A DNA stretch of 64,000 nucleotides from Escherichia coli (GCF_001677475.2 NZ_CP015229.1); one strand, 5' to 3'. Counted from the first letter of the stretch, positions 6,052-62,226 are shown. Notes: generated by a model not told the origin, from the letters alone. Numbers and translations: made by a program.

Positions 6052-6128
6052 CCGTTGGAATCGTGTGCTGCACAAAATTAAAGTTGTAAAGTGAAAACCC
6101 CCGTTCCTTACCAGTTCGGGGGTTTTAC
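6052..6128 (+). ncRNA. ohsC: candidate antitoxin sRNA OhsC, divergent from shoB
   Basis: Sigma70-like -35 TTGTAC / 18 bp / -10 CATAAT (6041-6046); rho-independent hairpin CCCCCG...CGGGGG + T-tract at 6098-6126; 19-nt segment 6055-6073 matches plus-strand 5806-5824 in the shoB 5'-UTR region at 18/19 positions, the expected pairing site. Confidence 0.45.
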
Positions 6129-6151
6129 TTTATAAAGAGAACGGTATTTTT

Positions 6152-8134: not shown

Positions 8135-9747
<1,613 letters not shown>

Positions 9748-9988
9748 TCAGCACACGAAACAGACCTGATATACATGGCTCTGCTAACTGCTTCGCTGCA
9801 GTTTCAGTTTAGCGGTATATGGGGACCAACGCTGTTTCGTGTGCCGTGGCAACCTGGAGGTGCCAACCTTAAACTTCGGGGGAATATTCTATACACAACG
9901 ACGGGGGATGTCGTTAGCCACGGGAGATTTATCTCATAAATAATTCACGTTGTCGCCATAACGGCGACAACGTGAACGAAGATGGCTA

Positions 9989-10978: not shown

Positions 10979-12778
<1,800 letters not shown>

Positions 12779-12975
12779 AAAGTATGATTATTGTGCCTTA
12801 ATGCCCGGTTAACCAGGCTTTTAGAAGTCGCTGTTCTGAGCTTAACGTCTGTATTAATAGAAACGCCGCATTCTACACTACAACATTGAGGCGAGGAAAT
12901 GTTCATACCGTATGGATTGTGGTATCTGGAAACGTCCTCGCATTTGTTATGCAAAATGCAACAAAGCCAGTGAAA

Positions 12976-13455
12976 TCACTGGCTCGCGTCTTCCGAAGAT
13001 GTTTCAAATCGCACAAGGCCAGGCGGCAATGCCACGCTTAAGATGATCGGTTGCCATTCAGACCGGGCAGCAAACTTTCGAGAGCAGCCACGTGCAATCA
13101 GGAATCCACCAACGCCACCGAGAATCGCACCGCATAATGCTGCAATATCTGAAGCAAAGAGTAGCTGAAATAGTGAAGCGATGAGGAATAGTCCCACCAA
13201 CGGCGACATATAAACCAGTAATGCGGAGCTAAGCAGGCTGCCTTCGGCGATTCCTAATTCTACTTTTTGCCCCGGCACTAACGGCTCATCACAGGGTACG
13301 ACAATGGTATGCGTGGTTTGCGGGCCAAGTTTATTCAACACGCGGCTACCGCAACCGGCGCGTGAAGCGCAGCTGCTGCATGAGGCTTTAACATCACAAC
13401 TGACCAGCGCCTGCCCGTTTTGCCAGGAGACGACGGTAGCCCACTCTTTGATCAT
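12976..13455 (-). CDS. rseC: sigma-E regulatory protein RseC
   Basis: 159 aa; position and sequence in the rpoE-rseABC operon. Confidence 0.93.
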   Translation of the reverse strand: MIKEWATVVSWQNGQALVSCDVKASCSSCASRAGCGSRVLNKLGPQTTHTIVVPCDEPLVPGQKVELGIAEGSLLSSALLVYMSPLVGLFLIASLFQLLFASDIAALCGAILGGVGGFLIARGCSRKFAARSEWQPIILSVALPPGLVRFETSSEDASQ

Positions 13456-14408
13456 TGCGCTGCCCCGAACTTAATATTCTCGGCAATGCGTTTCGCCGTT
13501 TGCGGCGGCAGTTCACCGACAATGGTGATTTCGGCGTTATCACGTACGCTTGTACTGACGGTTCTGCGTCCGGTGCGCAACATCTGATCGGTGCTCGATG
13601 GCGTAGCGCGGTTAACGTTTACCGAGAAGCTGAATAATCCGTCGGAATAGAGACGTGATTCGATAGGCATGTTGTCCATCGTCGGTAGCGGACGTCGACT
13701 ACTGGAAACTTCGCTAAAACCCTGTGGCAACCAGGTTGGCGTCCAGCTGAATTTAGCTTTTTCACCTACAGGAACAGAAAGCAACGGCGGCAAATTTGCC
13801 TTCGCCAGCGTCTGCATACTGCTGCTGATATCCTGATTGACGTTAAAAGCAATCACGCGAAATTGTTCCAGCGTTTCACCATCGCGATCAAGGAGATCAA
13901 CCCTCATCGGTAATTTCGATTCAGTGTCCATCCACACGATGTAGCTGTAGCGTGTACCATCTCGGGCAACCACGCGAATGACTTCGCAAAGACGATCAGC
14001 AATACGCGTGCGCCCGACGGAGATAAAGTCGTAGTAAGGAGAAAGGCGTTTGAAATCGGTATAGATGAGCGATGGCAGAGAATCAACAATGTAATCGCCA
14101 TTAAGCGTGAACGGTTCAAGTCCCGGTTCAAAATAGCTGATTTCATTGCCGCGCTGTACCACTTCCCGGCGCGGGCCATCCATTTGCAACAATTGTGCAA
14201 GAGGACGGTTATCGAGGCGTGCATGTCGATAACGCAGAGACTCAACACCCTGTTTATTGATGCTGATGAATGACAGCTCGTAATTCAGTGACTGACTGGC
14301 CAGGTTCATCTGCTGTAATAACGCCCCGGACGCGGGAGTGGCCGAGGCGTTAGCAGAGAATAACAGGCTACCTGTCACTAATGACATGGCAAACCAAAGT
14401 TGCTTCAT
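13452..14408 (-). CDS. rseB: sigma-E regulatory protein RseB (periplasmic)
   Basis: 318 aa with signal peptide; overlaps rseC and rseA stop/start. Confidence 0.95.
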   Translation of the reverse strand: MKQLWFAMSLVTGSLLFSANASATPASGALLQQMNLASQSLNYELSFISINKQGVESLRYRHARLDNRPLAQLLQMDGPRREVVQRGNEISYFEPGLEPFTLNGDYIVDSLPSLIYTDFKRLSPYYDFISVGRTRIADRLCEVIRVVARDGTRYSYIVWMDTESKLPMRVDLLDRDGETLEQFRVIAFNVNQDISSSMQTLAKANLPPLLSVPVGEKAKFSWTPTWLPQGFSEVSSSRRPLPTMDNMPIESRLYSDGLFSFSVNVNRATPSSTDQMLRTGRRTVSTSVRDNAEITIVGELPPQTAKRIAENIKFGAAQ

Positions 14409-29604: not shown

Positions 29605-29928
29605 TTGCGTATTCTTTTTGTCTGTTCGATATTGTTACTTTCTGGATGCAGCCATATGGCTAACGATAGCTGGAGCGGGCAGGATAAAGCTCAACACTTT
29701 ATCGCTTCGGCGATGCTTTCCGCCGCCGGAAATGAATATTCACAGCATCAGGGGATGAGCCGGGATCGCAGTGCCATGTTTGGAATGATGTTCTCTATCA
29801 GTCTGGGGGCGTCAAAAGAGCTTTGGGATAGCCGCCCGGAAGGGAGCGGCTGGAGCTGGAAGGATTTGGCCTGGGATGTCGCCGGTGCAACTACTGGCTA
29901 TACCGTCTGGCAGTTGGCGCATAATTAA
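29605..29928 (+). CDS. yfiM: lipoprotein YfiM
   Basis: 107 aa from TTG at 29605 ([15 protein letters not shown] lipobox); start codon choice uncertain. Confidence 0.8.
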
Positions 29929-31223
29929 AGGCGCATCCCCTTCCCTTTGCGATGTAGCATCAAAGAAACCAGAAACGCCACCACGGCCATCAAGGTCACA
30001 TACCAGAAGAAGGCTGTTTCCATTCCTATTGATTTCAGCGACAACGCTACATACTCTGCTGAGCCACCAAATATAGCATTGGCGACCGCATATGACAGAC
30101 CAACGCCTAATGCGCGAACCTGTGCCGGGAACATCTCATCCTTCAGTATTCCACTGATTGAAGTATAAAAACTCACTATCAGCAGGGCACACATCACCAG
30201 ACCAAAAGCGGCATAAGGCGAGGAAACGTTTTGCAATGCTGAGAGAATAGGAACGGTAAAAATGGCTGCCAGCGAACCGAAACATAACATTGAGGTACGG
30301 CGACCAATCTTATCCGACAGCGCGCCAATGAGTGGTTGAATAAGCATGAACACAAACAATGCGGCAGTCATAATGCCACTCGCCACGTTGGCATGCATTC
30401 CCGCAGTATTTACCAGATACTTCTGCATATAAGTGGTGAAGGTATAGAAACAAAGGGAGCCCGCAGCGGTAAAACCGAGAACCATGATGAATGCACGGCG
30501 ATTGCGCCATAATCCTTTCAGAGATCCAGCTTCTTTTAAAGCGCGTGTTTCTTGTTGTGAAGTTTCATCTAACTGACGACGTAACCACAATGCCACAACC
30601 GCTAACACAGCTCCTAACGCGAAAGGAATACGCCATCCCCACTCTCTGAGTGCAGCGTCTTCCATGGTGTGTTGTAAAACCACGACAACCAGTAGGGCTA
30701 GCAGTTGTCCGCCGATCAACGTCACATACTGAAATGATGCGTAAAAACCTTTGCGCCCTTCAACGGCAACTTCACTCATATAGGTGGCGCTGGTGCCATA
30801 TTCTCCGCCAACGGATAATCCCTGAAATAAACGCGCGAGAAGCAATAATGCCGGAGCCCACGTACCGATTGTTTCATAACCAGGCAAACAGGCGATTACC
30901 AGTGAGCCGAAACACATCATACACACCGATAGCAGCATCGATTTTTTGCGACCATGTTTATCGGCTATGCGGCCAAATAGCCAACCGCCTATTGGGCGCA
31001 TCAGGAATCCCGCAGCAAAAACACCTGCTGTTTGCAGTAGTTGAGTCGTCGTGTTCCCGGAAGGGAAGAAGATGTGGGCGAAGTAGAGTGAACAGAACGA
31101 GTAGACATAGAAATCGAACCACTCGACCAGATTACCTGAAGAGGCCCCCACAATTGCCCAAATGCGGCGACGAGTATCACTACTTGTCAGTTTGCTGTCT
31201 GCCGTTACAGTACTTTCAGCCAT
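29925..31223 (-). CDS. kgtP: alpha-ketoglutarate:proton symporter (MFS)
   Basis: 432 aa from [20 protein letters not shown]; 12-TM MFS profile. Confidence 0.95.
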
Positions 31224-31454
31224 GCCATTATGTCTCCTGCCGTAATCCGATGCTTTTGTCGGTCGCTGTTGTTTATTTTTTTTGGTAAAGAAAATGTTAT
31301 ACATTTGTTGCGCATCATTATGCAACCTTAACCATGAATTTAGTTAGCAGGAAAATGGTTATTGAGGATCTTAACGATAGATTTCTGGTAAGGAGGAAGT
31401 ATGGAAGTGGGCAATTTGGGGAAGCCGTATTCGCTGTTGAATCTGGCTTATGTG

Positions 31455-31490
31455 GGAGTATAAGACGCGCAGCGTCGCATCAGGCATTTT
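31455..31490. repeat. REP (repetitive extragenic palindromic) element
   Basis: Minus-strand GCCTGATGCGACGCTGCGCGTCTTATACTCCCACA, typical REP sequence between kgtP and the rrn terminators. Confidence 0.6.
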
Positions 31491-31504
31491 TTTCTGCGCC
31501 AATG

Positions 31505-31545
31505 CAAAAAGGCCCAGTCTTTCGACTGAGCCTTTCGTTTTATTT
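31505..31545 (-). terminator. rrnG distal terminator (T2-like copy)
   Basis: Second copy of the rrn terminator hairpin AAAGGCTCAGTCGAAAGACTGGGCCTTT + T-tract on the minus strand. Confidence 0.75.
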
Positions 31546-31671
31546 GATGCCTGGCAGTTTATGGCGGGCGTCCTGCCCGCCACCCTCCGGGCCGTTGCTT
31601 CGCAACGTTCAAATCCGCTCCCGGCGGATTTGTCCTACTCAGGAGAGCGTTCACCGACAAACAACAGATAA

Positions 31672-31712
31672 AACGAAAGGCCCAGTCTTTCGACTGAGCC
31701 TTTCGTTTTATT
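31672..31712 (-). terminator. rrnG proximal terminator (T1)
   Basis: Classic rrn T1 hairpin immediately 3' of the 5S rRNA. Confidence 0.85.
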
Positions 31713-31714
31713 TG

Positions 31715-31834
31715 ATGCCTGGCAGTTCCCTACTCTCGCATGGGGAGACCCCACACTACCATCGGCGCTACGGCGTTTCACTTCTGAGTTCGGCATGGGG
31801 TCAGGTGGGACCACCGCGCTACGGCCGCCAGGCA
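31715..31834 (-). rRNA. rrfG: 5S ribosomal RNA
   Basis: 120-nt exact match to E. coli 5S rRNA (UGCCUGGCGGCCGUAGCGCGG...CUGCCAGGCAU) on the minus strand. Confidence 0.97.
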
Positions 31835-31931
31835 AATTCTGTTTTATCAACACGTCATGTTCTGACCTGTCGATTTAATCTGTATCAGGCTGAAAATCTT
31901 CTCTCATCCGCCAAAACAGCTTCGGCGTTGT

Positions 31932-34834
<2,903 letters not shown>

Positions 34835-35178: not shown

Positions 35179-36720
<1,542 letters not shown>

Positions 36721-37162: not shown

Positions 37163-39736
37163 TTACTGGACGGCGACAATCCGGTCTTCATTAACTTCCA
37201 GGCGAATCACTTTACCCGGAACCAATTCACCAGACAGTATTTGCTGTGCCAGCGGGTTTTCGATCTGCTGCTGAATTGCACGTTTCAGAGGACGTGCACC
37301 ATAGACCGGATCGTAACCGTTCTCGCTCAGCAGTTTCAGCGCCTCGTCAGAAATGTGGATTTCATAACCACGTTCTTCCAGACGTTTATACAGACGTTTC
37401 AACTGAATCTGCGCAATCGACGCAATGTGCTGTTCACCCAGCGGATGGAAGACCACCACTTCATCGATACGGTTAATGAATTCCGGACGGAAGTTATGGC
37501 TAACCACACCGAGCACCAGCTCTTTCATGTGAGCATAATCCAGTTCACCGAAGCGTTCCTGAATCAGATCGGAACCGAGGTTAGAGGTCATAATGACGAC
37601 CGTATTACGGAAGTCGACCGTTCTCCCCTGCCCGTCAGTCAGACGCCCATCATCCAGTACCTGCAACAGAATGTTGAAGACATCCGGATGCGCTTTTTCC
37701 ACTTCATCCAGCAGGATGACGGAATACGGACGACGACGCACAGCTTCGGTCAGGTAGCCACCTTCTTCATAACCGACATATCCCGGAGGCGCACCAACCA
37801 GACGAGACACCGAGTGTTTCTCCATAAACTCGGACATATCGATACGGACCATCGCCTCGTCGCTATCAAACATAAAGTTCGCCAGCGCCTTACAAAGCTC
37901 TGTTTTCCCCACACCAGTTGGGCCGAGGAACAGGAATGAACCAATCGGGCGATTTGGATCCGCCAGCCCCGCACGGCTACGACGAATAGCGTTAGATACC
38001 GCATCAACCGCTTCGTTCTGACCAATTACGCGATGGTGCAGTTCTTGCTCCATACGCAGCAGTTTTTCGCGCTCGCTTTCCATCATGCGAGAAACCGGAA
38101 TCCCCGTCCAACGCGCCAGCACTTCAGCAATTTCGGCGTCGGTCACTTTATTACGCAACAGACGCATAGTTTTGCCTTCGAGCTGCGTTGCGGCTTCCAG
38201 TTGCTTTTCCAGTTCCGGGATTTTGCCGTATTGCAGTTCAGACATCCGCGCCAGGTCCCCCACACGGCGAGCCTGTTCAATAGCGATTTTCGCCTGTTCC
38301 AGTTCCGCTTTAATGGTCTGCGTACCAGAAAGCGATGCCTTCTCTGCTTTCCACTCTTCTTCTAACTCGGAGTACTGACGTTCTTTGTCGCTCAGCTCTT
38401 CGTTGAGCATATCCAGGCGTTTTTTACTGGCTTCATCAGACTCTTTCATTAACGCCTGTTGTTCCAGTTTGAGCTGGATGATACGACGATCGAGTCGGTC
38501 GAGTTCTTCTGGTTTTGAGTCAATCTGCATACGAATGCTGGATGCTGCTTCATCGATCAGGTCGATGGCTTTATCCGGCAGCTGACGGTCAGCAATGTAG
38601 CGATGAGACAACGTCGCCGCTGCAACAATTGCCGGGTCAGTAATTTGCACATGGTGGTGCAATTCGTAACGTTCTTTCAGGCCACGCAGAATCGCAATGG
38701 TATCTTCAACAGAAGGCTCGGCAACAAACACTTTCTGGAAACGACGTTCCAGCGCAGCATCTTTTTCGATGTACTGGCGATATTCGTCAAGCGTCGTGGC
38801 ACCTACGCAGTGCAATTCACCACGCGCCAGCGCCGGTTTCAGCATGTTTCCGGCGTCCATTGCGCCATCGGCTTTACCCGCGCCGACCATGGTATGTAAT
38901 TCGTCGATAAACAGGATGACGTTGCCTTCCTGTTTGGCAAGATCGTTAAGCACGCCTTTTAAACGTTCTTCAAACTCACCGCGATATTTCGCCCCAGCCA
39001 CCAGCGCGCCCATATCCAGCGCCAGTACCCGGCGGCCTTTCAACCCTTCCGGCACTTCGCCGTTGATAATACGCTGCGCCAGACCTTCAACGATGGCAGT
39101 TTTACCGACGCCTGGTTCACCAATCAGTACCGGGTTATTTTTAGTACGACGTTGTAGCACCTGAATGGTACGGCGAATTTCTTCATCACGACCAATCACC
39201 GGATCGAGTTTGCCCTGTTCGGCTCGTTCGGTAAGGTCGATGGTATATTTTTTCAAAGCCTGACGTTGGTCTTCAGCACCTTGATCGTTCACGCTTTCAC
39301 CTCCACGCATTTGTTCAATCGCTTGAGTAATGTTGGCGGTGGTCGCCCCTGCTGCTTTCAGGATGTCGGCCAGCGTGCCGCGAGACTCAAGTGCCGCCAG
39401 AACGAACAGTTCTGACGAGATAAAGTTATCACCACGTTTTTGCGCCAGCTTGTCGCAAAGATTAAGAACGCGCACCAGATCCTGTGATGGCTGGACATCA
39501 CCACCAGTACCTTCAACCTGCGGTAAACGATTTAATGCCTGATTGATATCTGTGCGCAACTGGCCAGCATTAATGCCAGCGGATGTTAATAAAGGACTAA
39601 CCGAACCCCCTTCCTGATTCAGCAGGGCGCTCATTAAATGAAGTGGTTCGATGAATTGGTTGTCGTGCCCGAGTGCAAGTGATTGGGCATCGGCAAGAGC
39701 AAGCTGGAATTTATTAGTAAGACGATCCAGACGCAT
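37163..39736 (-). CDS. clpB: disaggregase chaperone ClpB
   Basis: 857 aa from [11 protein letters not shown]; two AAA+ modules (Walker A GEPGVGKT and GPTGVGKT), coiled-coil M-domain. Confidence 0.97.
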
Positions 39737-39774
39737 AACTCCTCCCATAACGGATCAAAGTTGCTACTGGAGAT

Positions 39775-39803
39775 TAAATGAGGTCATCCCTCAATTATTC
39801 AAG
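39775..39803 (-). promoter_or_regulatory. sigma-32 heat-shock promoter of clpB
   Basis: Minus strand CTTGAA - 14 nt - CCTCATTTA, matching the sigma-32 -35 / -10 consensus (CTTGAA / CCCCATnT). Confidence 0.65.
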
Positions 39804-39865
39804 GTTATTGACCAGATTAATGTGAAAAGAAAATCACGCGTACCGGATCGTCTTGATTCTTTAGG

Positions 39866-43106: not shown

Positions 43107-43161
43107 TTGACAGCGTGAAAACAGTACGGGTACTGTACTGAAGTCACTTAAGGAAACAAAC

Positions 43162-43209
43162 ATGAAACACACACCGTTTTTCTTCGCATTCTTTTTTACC
43201 TTCCCCTGA
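43162..43209 (+). CDS. pheL: pheA leader peptide (Phe-rich attenuation peptide)
   Basis: ATG at 43162; translates MKHTPFFFAFFFTFP plus stop (7 Phe in 15 codons). Confidence 0.9.
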   Translation: MKHTPFFFAFFFTFP

Positions 43210-43254
43210 ATGGGAGGCGTTTCGTCGTGTGAAACAGAATGCGAAGACGAACAA

Positions 43255-43288
43255 TAAGGCCTCCCAAATCGGGGGGCCTTTTTTATTG
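43255..43288 (+). terminator. pheA attenuator (intrinsic terminator of the leader)
   Basis: Hairpin AAGGCCTCCC-aaatc-GGGGGGCCTT followed by a T6 run, between pheL and pheA. Confidence 0.85.
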
Positions 43289-61863: not shown

Positions 61864-62226
61864 GGGGCTGATTCTGGATTCGACGGGATTTGCGAAACCC
61901 AAGGTGCATGCCGAGGGGCGGTTGGCCTCGTAAAAAGCCGCAAAAAATAGTCGCAAACGACGAAAACTACGCTTTAGCAGCTTAATAACCTGCTTAGAGC
62001 CCTCTCTCCCTAGCCTCCGCTCTTAGGACGGGGATCAAGAGAGGTCAAACCCAAAAGAGATCGCGTGGAAGCCCTGCCTGGGGTTGAAGCGTTAAAACTT
62101 AATCAGGCTAGTTTGTTAGTGGCGTGTCCGTCCGCAGCTGGCAAGCGAATGTAAAGACTGACTAAGCATGTAGTACCGAGGATGTAGGAATTTCGGACGC
62201 GGGTTCAACTCCCGCCAGCTCCACCA
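61864..62226 (+). ncRNA. ssrA: tmRNA (SsrA), 363 nt, ending CCA
   Basis: 5' GGGGCUGAUUCUGGAUUCGACGGG, tag-coding region ...GCAAACGACGAAAACUACGCUUUAGCAGCUUAA, 3' GGGUUCAACUCCCGCCAGCUCCACCA. Confidence 0.97.

What the first reader, a model, noticed from the sequence alone, without database searches (positions are those of the whole stretch)
31505..31727. Duplicated ~50-bp terminator module 3' of the rrnG 5S gene, followed by a REP element
The terminator sequence GGCCCAGTCTTTCGACTGAGCCTTTCGTTTTATTTGATGCCTGGCAGTT occurs twice on the plus strand, starting at 31511 and at 31679 (168 bp apart), giving tandem T1/T2-type terminators for the minus-strand rrn operon, with a REP element just distal (31455-31490). 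This is typical rrn architecture; it is noted so the direct repeats are not mistaken for anything else.
Basis: seen in the sequence. Interest (0 to 1): 0.12.

Follow-up and report, generated by a model that had tools for sequence, protein, structure and literature searches.

The report
rRNA-operon small RNA between twin terminators
The duplicated 52-base module is real, but it does more than stop transcription twice: its two copies bracket a known small-RNA gene (identical to E. coli rrB) carried at the end of a ribosomal RNA operon, in a rare but ordinary variant arrangement.

Summary
The repeat is confirmed. It is an exact 52-nt direct repeat (31508-31559 and 31676-31727), 168 bp start to start, at the 3' end of a minus-strand rrn operon. 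The flanks (clpB, tRNA-Glu spacer, kgtP) match E. coli rrnG.

- Each copy begins with the last 13 nt of 5S rRNA plus CAAAT. This 18-nt motif is the hallmark of "tRNA-linked repeats" (TLRs).
- The 116 nt between the copies is not a spacer. The segment from the 5S 3' end through T1 and this stretch is 100% identical to K-12 rrnB, which encodes the RrB small RNA. RrB binds Hfq and CsrA and is made by T1 read-through (Stenum 2021).
- The layout is not typical of rrnG. K-12 rrnG has one terminator and no TLR. Only 11 of 5,426 complete E. coli genomes carry a TLR at rrnG.
- The three of those 11 I inspected have a T2-type distal hairpin. Here the distal hairpin is a second T1 copy, so the usual 18-nt repeat extends to 52 nt.

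Related mosaics occur at rrnB and rrnE in a few E. coli strains, and at TLR loci in Pectobacterium and Enterobacter. This points to recombination among rrn operon ends.

Verdict: a new member or allele of a known kind, of low interest.

The parts
31715..31834 (-). 5S rRNA gene (rrfG equivalent), 120 nt
   Evidence: Rfam RF00001, 92.8 bits, at 31717-31832. Mature ends TGCCTGGCGG...CCAGGCAT read.
31676..31727 (-). Proximal copy of the 52-nt repeat: 5S 3' end (13 nt) + CAAAT + T1 hairpin up to GGGCCTTT
   Evidence: 100% identity to the other copy.
31710..31727 (-). 18-nt TLR hallmark, copy 1 (AACTGCCAGGCATCAAAT): 5S 3' end plus the RNase E '+3' site
   Evidence: Sequence. The meaning of the 18-mer comes from PMC8144298.
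31668..31711 (-). T1 intrinsic terminator: 20-bp extended stem, GAAA loop, U-rich tail. Identical to K-12 rrnB T1.
   Evidence: Terminator scan. dG -32.6 kcal/mol. Identity to K-12 rrnB.
31560..31675 (-). Unique 116 nt between the repeats: body of an rrB-type TLR small-RNA gene, with three conserved stem-loops
   Evidence: 100% identical to K-12 rrnB. Conserved in 15 loci from 7 further genera. Consensus fold with 2 compensatory pairs. Weak RtT (tyrT TLR) similarity at 17 bits, E=0.33.
31539..31711 (-). Predicted 173-nt RrB-long-equivalent transcript, placed by homology only
   Evidence: In rrnB the 5' end maps 3 nt after the 5S 3' end and the length is 173 nt (PMC8144298). Coordinates are transferred by sequence identity and are inferred.
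31508..31559 (-). Distal copy of the 52-nt repeat
31542..31559 (-). 18-nt TLR hallmark, copy 2, at the 3' end of the small-RNA gene
31501..31536 (-). Distal terminator T1': the same hairpin as T1 (GGCTCAGTC-GAAA-GACTGGGCC), followed by the rrnG-type tail UUUUUGCAUU
   Evidence: dG -23.2 kcal/mol, against -24.1 for the K-12 rrnG terminator and -22.7 for rrnB T2. The tail is identical to K-12 rrnG. The simple scan did not list it, because it extends the stem into the T-run.
31460..31485 (-). REP-like element (GCCTGATGCGACGCTGCGCGTCTTAT): core matches the REP consensus, distal arm is degenerate
   Evidence: Pattern match. Homologous to the canonical REP in the K-12 rrnA tail. It is the only REP-like match in the window.
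31401..31463 (+). yfiS-like 20-codon ORF (MEVGNLGKPYSLLNLAYVGV), convergent with the rrn operon; its stop codon lies inside the REP-like element
   Evidence: K-12 annotates yfiS at the same place.
29925..31223 (-). kgtP, the next gene on the same strand, which the terminators insulate from rrn transcription (context)

Best explanation
This is the 3' end of the rrnG-equivalent ribosomal RNA operon of an E. coli/Shigella-level genome. It carries a 5S-linked 'tRNA-linked repeat' (TLR), meaning a copy of the rrB-type small-RNA gene, bracketed by two intrinsic terminators that share the same T1 hairpin.

Mechanism:
- Most rrn transcripts stop at T1. In rrnB this identical terminator stops about 87%.
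- The rest read through the 116-nt body and stop at the distal T1', which carries the rrnG-type U-tail and is followed by a REP-like hairpin. This protects kgtP on the same strand.
- RNase E cuts 3 nt after the 5S 3' end and releases the small RNA.
- The repeated 18-mer recreates that cleavage site at the small RNA's own 3' end.
- By homology to RrA/B/F, the product is a short-lived RNA that binds Hfq and CsrA and whose level tracks rRNA transcription.

Origin of the 52-nt repeat: the usual 18-nt TLR repeat is extended because the distal hairpin is T1-type instead of T2-type. The most likely cause is recombination or gene conversion among rrn operon ends, using the shared 18-mer and the shared flanks CGAAAGGC and GGCCTTTTTGC.

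Shown here: sequence identity, anatomy, hairpin stability, rarity, cross-genus conservation. Inferred: read-through, processing, protein binding, the recombination route.
For: Exact 52-nt repeat with spacing 168. 5S gene and operon context. The 199 aligned columns from the 5S 3' end through T1, the body and the second 18-mer are identical to K-12 rrnB. The tail and REP-like element are identical to K-12 rrnG. PMC8144298 reports that rrA/rrB/rrF lie between T1 and T2, are made by T1 read-through, have a 5' end at the RNase E +3 site, bind Hfq and CsrA, and that T1 terminates 87% and T2 100% of transcripts; it also proposes the 18-bp repeat as the RNase E signal. Both hairpins are stable: -32.6 and -23.2 kcal/mol, with the latter comparable to the K-12 rrnG terminator and rrnB T2. 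The whole region folds with z = -9.9. TLR loci in Enterobacter, Citrobacter, Pseudocitrobacter, Kluyvera, Pectobacterium, Serratia, Klebsiella and Escherichia keep the 168-171 nt spacing and three stem-loops, with 2 compensatory pairs. Evidence for mosaic recombination: T1-like distal hairpins at rrnB in 4 E. coli genomes; a single T1-like terminator at rrnG in 21 genomes; mosaic hairpins at rrnE; a TLR at rrnE in BLR(DE3); and a 5S 3'-end variant GACAT that is always mirrored in the TLR copy.
Against: There are no expression data for this strain. Read-through, processing and binding are transferred from K-12 rrnB. Deleting rrA/B/F gives only modest phenotypes (PMC8144298), so the biological role of the RNA is itself uncertain. 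The exact arrangement (TLR, then a perfect T1 copy, then the rrnG tail) was found nowhere else. No E. coli record matched the rrnG query better than 96.0%, and the three TLR-bearing rrnG loci inspected have a T2-type distal hairpin. No E. coli genome has the exact T1'-tail junction. There were 0 hits in 100,044 species representatives and 0 in metagenome contigs. It could therefore be very recent or, less likely, an assembly error. Covariation in the TLR body is thin, with 2 of 37 pairs, because the sequence is nearly invariant. Rfam 15 has no family for it; only a sub-threshold RtT hit was found.
Confidence: 0.8

Rival explanations
1. This is a plain redundant tandem terminator. The two hairpins exist only to stop the very strong rrn transcription, and the 116 nt between them is a functionless spacer.
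For: Both copies are hairpin plus T-run. kgtP lies downstream on the same strand and needs insulation. rrA/B/F deletion phenotypes are modest.
Against: The 'spacer' is 100% identical to K-12 rrB and nearly invariant from Escherichia to Serratia and Pectobacterium, while the flanking hairpins and tails vary. Its stem-loops keep pairing through compensatory changes. Defined transcripts that bind Hfq and CsrA have been demonstrated for the identical sequence. Most E. coli rrnG operons manage with a single terminator.
Confidence: 0.1
2. This is an assembly or polishing artefact. The distal hairpin was wrongly copied from T1, or a 168-bp unit from another rrn operon was misplaced at rrnG during assembly of near-identical rrn ends.
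For: The exact arrangement is unique among everything searched. rrn ends are classic mis-assembly sites. The short-read contig from the same lineage stops at the repeat edge and cannot confirm the hairpin.
Against: The structure is internally coherent: period 168, the same as every other TLR locus, and a tail identical to rrnG. All its component junctions exist separately in real genomes. These are a TLR at rrnG (11 genomes), a T1-like hairpin next to the rrnG tail (21 genomes), and a TLR followed by a T1-like hairpin (4 genomes, plus Pectobacterium and Enterobacter).
Confidence: 0.06
3. The 168-bp unit is a decayed second 5S gene, comparable to rrfF in rrnD, and only its 3' end and terminator remain recognisable.
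For: It shares the 5S 3' end. The unit from TGTTTGTCGG to GGCAT is 117 nt against 120 nt for 5S. The consensus fold pairs its 5' GUUUGUCGGU with the 3' ACUGCCAGGC, which resembles 5S helix I.
Against: Outside the shared 13 nt there is no sequence similarity to 5S. The local score of 14 sits against a shuffle mean of 14.8, with 1,468 of 2,000 shuffles at least as good, and the global alignment is equally unremarkable. The Rfam 5S model gives no hit on the body even at E<=10. The body instead resembles the tyrT TLR (RtT), though weakly.
Confidence: 0.03

Closest known systems
rrB / RrB small RNA between T1 and T2 of E. coli K-12 rrnB (also rrA in rrnA and rrF in rrnD); Stenum et al. 2021, PMC8144298
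   Same: Identical sequence from the 5S 3' end through T1, the 116-nt body and the second 18-mer. Same 168-nt period. Same position after 5S. Bracketed by two intrinsic terminators.
   Different: It sits at the rrnG locus, which has no TLR in K-12. The distal terminator is a second T1 hairpin with the rrnG tail rather than T2, so the direct repeat is 52 nt instead of 18.
E. coli K-12 rrnG 3' end (rrfG, single terminator, REP-like element, yfiS, kgtP)
   Same: Same flanking genes. Same U-tail TTTTTGCATTGGCGCAGAAAAAAATGCC, same REP-like element and same yfiS ORF.
   Different: K-12 has one T2-like hairpin directly after 5S and no small-RNA gene. The window has an extra 168 bp and a T1-type hairpin.
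tRNA-linked repeats (TLRs) of tRNA operons, e.g. the tyrT 178-bp repeats / RtT RNA (Rfam RF00391)
   Same: The repeat unit ends with 18-19 nt identical to the 3' end of the upstream stable-RNA gene. There is weak similarity of a hairpin plus GGCCCGRAG to the RtT model.
   Different: The RtT score is far below the gathering score (17 against 45 bits). Those units follow a tRNA, not 5S, and occur in up to 3.14 tandem copies.
9S RNA, the 5S precursor processed by RNase E
   Same: The distal module reproduces the layout of the 3' part of the 5S precursor: a stem, then the AU-rich CAUCAAAUAAAAC segment, then the T1 hairpin. That layout follows from the window sequence. Its correspondence to the classical 9S RNase E substrate is my own knowledge.
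   Different: The stem preceding the site is formed by the small RNA rather than by 5S helix I. No cleavage data exist for this context.

Membership tests
5S-linked TLR / RrA,B,F small-RNA family | Lies immediately downstream of a 5S (or tRNA) gene, on the same strand and in the same transcription unit | tested here: met
   5S at 31715-31834 (-), and the element at 31539-31711 (-).
5S-linked TLR / RrA,B,F small-RNA family | The 3' end carries 18-19 nt identical to the 3' end region of the upstream stable-RNA gene | tested here: met
   AACTGCCAGGCATCAAAT occurs at 31710-31727 and 31542-31559, and identity here extends to 52 nt.
5S-linked TLR / RrA,B,F small-RNA family | Sequence homology to rrA/rrB/rrF | tested here: met
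   100% identity to K-12 rrnB over 199 aligned columns, 1 difference from rrnA, a few from rrnD.
5S-linked TLR / RrA,B,F small-RNA family | Conserved secondary structure of three stem-loops | tested here: met
   RNAalifold on 14 distinct sequences from 8 genera gives three invariant or compensated stem-loops, with 2 pairs showing double changes. Covariation is limited by near-invariance.
5S-linked TLR / RrA,B,F small-RNA family | [quoted passage not shown] | not testable with these tools
   Known only for K-12 rrnB (PMC8144298).
rrnB-type T1/T2 dual terminator | The proximal terminator is T1 (GGCTCAGTC-GAAA-GACTGGGCC with an extended A/U stem) | tested here: met
   Identical to K-12 rrnB T1.
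rrnB-type T1/T2 dual terminator | The distal terminator is the distinct T2 hairpin (GGCCATCC-loop-GGATGGCC) | tested here: not met
   The distal hairpin is a perfect T1 copy. 52 of 52 positions are identical between the two modules, against 33-35 of 52 in canonical T1/T2 loci.
Canonical E. coli rrnG 3' end | A single terminator directly after rrfG, with no TLR | tested here: not met
   K-12. 32 of 40 evenly sampled E. coli records run from kgtP into 5S without the 168-bp unit. The window has the extra unit.
REP (repetitive extragenic palindromic) element | Match to the consensus GCCKGATGCGRCGY-N-RCGYCTTATCMGGCCTAC | tested here: inconclusive
   The first 26 positions match exactly. The last 9 or so (ACTCCCAC against CMGGCCTAC) do not, so the outer palindrome is lost. 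The consensus itself is quoted from my own knowledge.
REP (repetitive extragenic palindromic) element | Member of a dispersed multi-copy family | tested here: inconclusive
   It is the only match in the 64-kb window. It is clearly homologous to the canonical REP in the tails of K-12 rrnA and BLR rrnE. The copy of NC_000913.3 held here lists no feature of any kind at either intergenic stretch inspected, so REP annotation could not be used as a check.

The most novel reading that the evidence does not exclude
The 168-bp unit (5S 3' end + T1 + rrB body) may behave as a recombination-mobile cassette. Its 18-nt copy of the 5S 3' end would act as a homology handle that lets it be inserted into, or deleted from, any rrn operon end. 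The window would then capture a fresh gain at rrnG in which the distal terminator has been homogenised to T1. That would change rrB gene dosage between strains (for example from three to four copies). It would also leave a 52-bp perfect repeat that should delete at measurable frequency to give the 'single T1-like' rrnG allele seen in 21 E. coli genomes. It would also give the small RNA a complete mimic of the 5S-precursor RNase E context at its 3' end.
Probability: 0.25. Interest if true: 0.3.

Novelty: new member of a known kind. Interest (0 to 1): 0.15.

Why it matters
It matters little on its own. It corrects an annotation-level reading, because the 'spacer' between the twin terminators is a copy of a known, conserved small-RNA gene that Rfam 15 does not cover and that PGAP leaves unannotated.

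It also shows that the presence of this gene, and the type of its distal terminator, are polymorphic among rrn operons and strains. So the statement 'three of seven operons' is a K-12 property, not a species property. For anyone studying RrA/B/F dosage, rrn terminator efficiency or concerted evolution of rrn ends, the allele series found here is a ready-made natural experiment: K-12 type, T1-TLR-T2 type, single T1-like type and this T1-TLR-T1 type. No new mechanism is implied.

Tried and rejected
- **Decayed 5S gene.** I tested whether the TLR body is a decayed 5S gene. Local and global alignment to 5S, with the shared 13 nt removed, is no better than dinucleotide shuffles, and there is no 5S hit from Rfam. 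Rejected.
- **92-nt census query.** A first census with a 92-nt junction query failed. BLAST pieces from the 5S/T1 and TLR/18-mer junctions were joined into one 'place', so coverage did not discriminate.
- **36-mer census.** I replaced it with a 36-mer that can only seed across the true junction, with a positive control. Even this picked up a 1-mismatch class. The one member of that class I inspected, BLR(DE3) rrnE, has a T2-like hairpin.
- **Collection scans.** A scan of genome contigs for TLR followed by AAGGCTCAG found nothing. Two metagenome scans for the distal junctions found nothing. rrn ends are poorly assembled in such data, so this is weak negative evidence.
- **Independent assemblies via exact proteins.** Exact KgtP is found in Logan contigs from 8 samples, but the one contig shown stops at CCTTT|TTGCATTGG. 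That break is expected simply because the tail is shared with rrnA, so it says nothing about the hairpin. Three spurious ORFs spanning the junction are not on record.
- **REP checks.** My first REP pattern had the wrong loop length and gave 0 hits. I corrected it.
- **Other tools.** TRF reports nothing, because there are only 1.3 copies. The simple terminator scan lists T1 but not T1', a quirk of how it extends the stem into the T-run.
- **Literature.** I could not retrieve a 1991 paper on the rrnG terminator region that I recalled from memory. Nothing in this report rests on it.

Full report
**Observation.** The sequence at 31300-32100 and the repeat finder show one direct-repeat family: 31508-31559 and 31676-31727, 52 nt, 100% identical, 168 bp start to start. 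Rfam places a 5S gene at 31717-31832 on the minus strand, downstream of 23S (31932-34834) and 16S (35179-36720). From the minus-strand read-out the mature 5S gene is 31834 to 31715. The right-hand repeat copy therefore starts inside 5S. It comprises the last 13 nt of 5S (AACTGCCAGGCAT), then CAAAT, then a hairpin.

**Locus identity.**
- clpB lies upstream and is 99.6% identical to E. coli.
- The 16S-23S spacer holds tRNA-Glu.
- kgtP, yfiM and pssA lie downstream, at most 98.4% identical to E. coli.
- RyfD, the pheL leader, rncO and tmRNA lie elsewhere in the window.

This matches the K-12 rrnG neighbourhood. The genome is at E. coli/Shigella level but is not one of the 5,426 complete E. coli genomes searched.

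**What lies between the copies.** A literature search led to Stenum et al. 2021 (PMC8144298). That paper reports the following:
- In K-12, three of the seven rrn operons (rrnA, rrnB, rrnD) end in two terminators, T1 and T2.
- The sequence between them belongs to the 'tRNA-linked repeat' (TLR) family and encodes the small RNAs RrA, RrB and RrF.
- These RNAs are made by T1 read-through. Their 5' end is at the RNase E site 3 nt after 5S. They are processed to forms of about 173 and 115 nt, are short-lived, and bind Hfq and CsrA.
- The family hallmark is an 18-19 nt copy of the 3' end of the upstream stable-RNA gene, proposed to be an RNase E signal.

Alignment with the K-12 operon ends shows that the window is 100% identical to K-12 rrnB from the 5S 3' end through T1, the 116-nt body and the second 18-mer (199 columns). 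After that point K-12 rrnB has T2 (GGCCATCCTGACGGATGGCC). The window instead has the T1 hairpin again, followed by the tail TTTTTGCATTGGCGCAGAAAAAAATGCCTGATGCGACGC. That tail is the K-12 rrnG tail. So the 52-nt repeat is the canonical 18-nt TLR repeat lengthened by a T1-type distal hairpin.

**How typical it is.** K-12 rrnG has a single T2-like terminator directly after 5S and no TLR. Searching 831 bp (kgtP to 5S) against 5,426 complete E. coli genomes gave these results:
- Only 32 genomes cover at least 80% of the query.
- Eleven cover it fully. Three were inspected (strains T2, EC14 and AF40), and all have T1-TLR-T2-like at rrnG.
- Twenty-one lack exactly one 168-bp unit. The one inspected by alignment (PEB20) has a single T1-like hairpin after 5S, and all 21 gave the same 89.7% match to the T1'-tail query.
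- In an evenly spaced sample of the ranking, 32 of 40 records align from kgtP straight into 5S, which is the K-12 type.
- No record matched the rrnG query better than 96.0%, and the records at that level carry a T2-type distal hairpin, so the window's arrangement was not found at rrnG.

I then used a 36-mer that can only seed across a TLR-to-T1 junction, with a control. It is exact in only 4 genomes, all at rrnB next to murB. There the distal hairpin is GGCCCAGTCGGAAGACTGGGCC, and 47-50 of 52 positions match the proximal module. The one 1-mismatch hit I inspected, BLR(DE3), has a TLR at rrnE with a T2-like hairpin. Single or mosaic T1-like terminators also occur at rrnE.

**Across species.** A strict pattern for TLR followed by AAGGCTCAG found nothing in 100,044 species representatives. 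A general TLR 3'-end 26-mer found 15 loci in Enterobacter, Citrobacter, Pseudocitrobacter, Kluyvera, Pectobacterium, Serratia, Klebsiella indica and Escherichia. The period is 168-171 nt everywhere. In the 18 tabulated loci other than the window and the four rrnB alleles with a T1-like distal hairpin, the exact shared run is 18-21 nt. It is 36 nt in Pectobacterium, whose distal hairpin is T1-like with a flipped loop. Enterobacter sp. JUb54 has a T1-like distal hairpin followed by a further T2-like hairpin. Two metagenome scans found nothing. The twin-T1 design therefore recurs sporadically, but the perfect 52-nt version was seen only here.

**Structure.**
- The 291-nt region folds far better than shuffles, with z = -9.9.
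- T1 is a 20-bp hairpin (-32.6 kcal/mol).
- T1' is a 13-bp hairpin (-23.2), comparable to the K-12 rrnG terminator (-24.1) and rrnB T2 (-22.7).
- Both hairpins are also followed by T-runs on the plus strand, so they could act bidirectionally. This is an inference.
- RNAalifold on 14 distinct TLRs gives three conserved stem-loops, a terminal helix between 5' GUUUGUCGGU and the 3' 5S-like ACUGCCAGGC, and two compensated pairs.
- The T1 lower stem shows G:C to A:T compensatory alleles.
- The 5S 3'-end variant GACAT is always mirrored in the TLR copy, which indicates concerted evolution of the two 18-mers.
- Rfam 15 has no family for this RNA. The only hint is a sub-threshold match to RtT, the tyrT TLR (17 bits, E=0.33).

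**Mechanism (best explanation, confidence about 0.8).**
1. rrn transcription mostly stops at T1. PMC8144298 cites 87% for the identical rrnB T1.
2. Read-through transcripts continue to T1' and the REP-like hairpin, which shields kgtP on the same strand.
3. RNase E cuts after CAUCAA at both copies of the 18-mer and releases an RrB-identical RNA.
4. That RNA's abundance reports rRNA transcription, and it can bind Hfq and CsrA.

Only sequence, anatomy, stability and conservation are shown here. Transcription, processing and binding are transferred from K-12.

**Origin (inferred).** The likely route is recombination or gene conversion among rrn ends. A crossover within the 18-mer, between a TLR-bearing operon and an rrnG allele with a single T1-like terminator, gives exactly this structure. 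Conversely, deletion between the 52-bp repeats would give the single-T1-like allele found in 21 genomes. Deletion between the 18-mers of a T1-TLR-T2 allele would give the K-12 type.

**Rivals.**
- A functionless spacer between redundant terminators (0.1). The body's near-invariance across genera, while hairpins and tails vary, argues against this.
- An assembly artefact (0.06). This cannot be excluded without reads. The Logan contig with an identical KgtP stops at the repeat edge for reasons unrelated to the hairpin, and the ORF-based look-ups found nothing.
- A decayed 5S gene (0.03). There is no similarity beyond the shared 13 nt.

**REP.** The consensus core matches at 31460-31485, and the element is homologous to the canonical REP in the rrnA and rrnE tails. 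Its distal arm is degenerate, it is the only such match in the window, and it overlaps the stop codon of a yfiS-like 20-codon ORF at 31401-31463 on the plus strand.

**Verdict.** The repeat is real and benign. The finding is a rare allele of a known system: an rrB-type small-RNA gene at rrnG with twin T1 terminators. Novelty is 'new member of a known kind' and interest is 0.15.

Noticed in passing
window 31401-31463 (+): A yfiS-like 20-codon ORF (MEVGNLGKPYSLLNLAYVGV) differs from K-12 YfiS at two residues and is convergent with the rrn operon. Its stop codon lies inside the REP-like element. On the plus strand the distal hairpin is followed by TTTCGTTTTATTT, so T1' could also terminate yfiS transcription.
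   Followed up: partly
window 31668-31711; L002, L004, L007, L011, L025: The lower stem of T1 occurs as compensatory alleles: AAAACGAAAGGC/GCCTTTCGTTTT, AAAACAAAAGGC/GCCTTTTGTTTT, and in Klebsiella indica AAAGCAAAGGGC/GCCCTTTGCTTT. This supports the long 20-bp stem in vivo.
   Followed up: partly
L006 (E. coli AR_0061 rrnB) and L022 (Pectobacterium sp. CFBP8739): The T1 loop is flipped (TTTC instead of GAAA) on an otherwise palindromic stem, which suggests hairpin inversion or template switching at the terminator.
   Followed up: no
L011 (K-12 rrnD), L016, L019: Where the 5S 3' end reads GACAT instead of GGCAT, the copy at the TLR 3' end carries the same change. The two 18-mers were identical in all 23 loci tabulated, which indicates concerted evolution or shared constraint.
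   Followed up: partly
L007 (BLR(DE3) rrnE) against L013 (K-12 rrnE): BLR(DE3) carries a TLR with dual terminators at rrnE, whereas K-12 rrnE has a different single terminator followed by yjaA. So the set of rrn operons that carry the small-RNA gene differs between common lab strains.
   Followed up: partly
L024 (Enterobacter sp. JUb54): The TLR is followed by a T1-like hairpin and then a further T2-like hairpin, giving three terminators in a row. The proximal terminator is an unrelated hairpin.
   Followed up: no
L028 (Escherichia sp. MOD1-EC7003, contig start): A TLR body whose upstream sequence is not T1 or 5S (…CGAGCCGCTTAC|GGACAAATCAGCC…). This may be a TLR in a different context or a rearranged copy.
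   Followed up: no
window 31334-31933 (+): A 199-codon ORF runs antisense through the TLR, both terminators and 5S. It is a spurious ORF that gene callers might pick up.
   Followed up: yes
window 31585-31628 (-): There is a sub-threshold Rfam match to RtT RNA, the tyrT-operon TLR: hairpin CGUUGCGAAGCAACG plus GGCCCGGAG. This hints that 5S-linked and tRNA-linked TLRs share a core. No Rfam family covers RrA/B/F.
   Followed up: partly
and one search hit lists (e.g. H166, a 4.5-kb plasmid record of a Nissle 1917 assembly): Eighty-eight of the matching places are on plasmids. The one listed, H166, matches only the T1 region (query 744-793) at 100%. These may be cloning-vector copies of the rrnB terminator, which carry the rrB gene along.
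   Followed up: no
window 6054-6131, 9663-9877, 12660-13491, 39717-39855, 43161-43286, 61864-62226: Other Rfam features in the window are ohsC, rncO, AsrC (antisense to rseC), RyfD, the Phe leader and tmRNA. All are at positions consistent with the K-12 2.70-2.76 Mb map.
   Followed up: no
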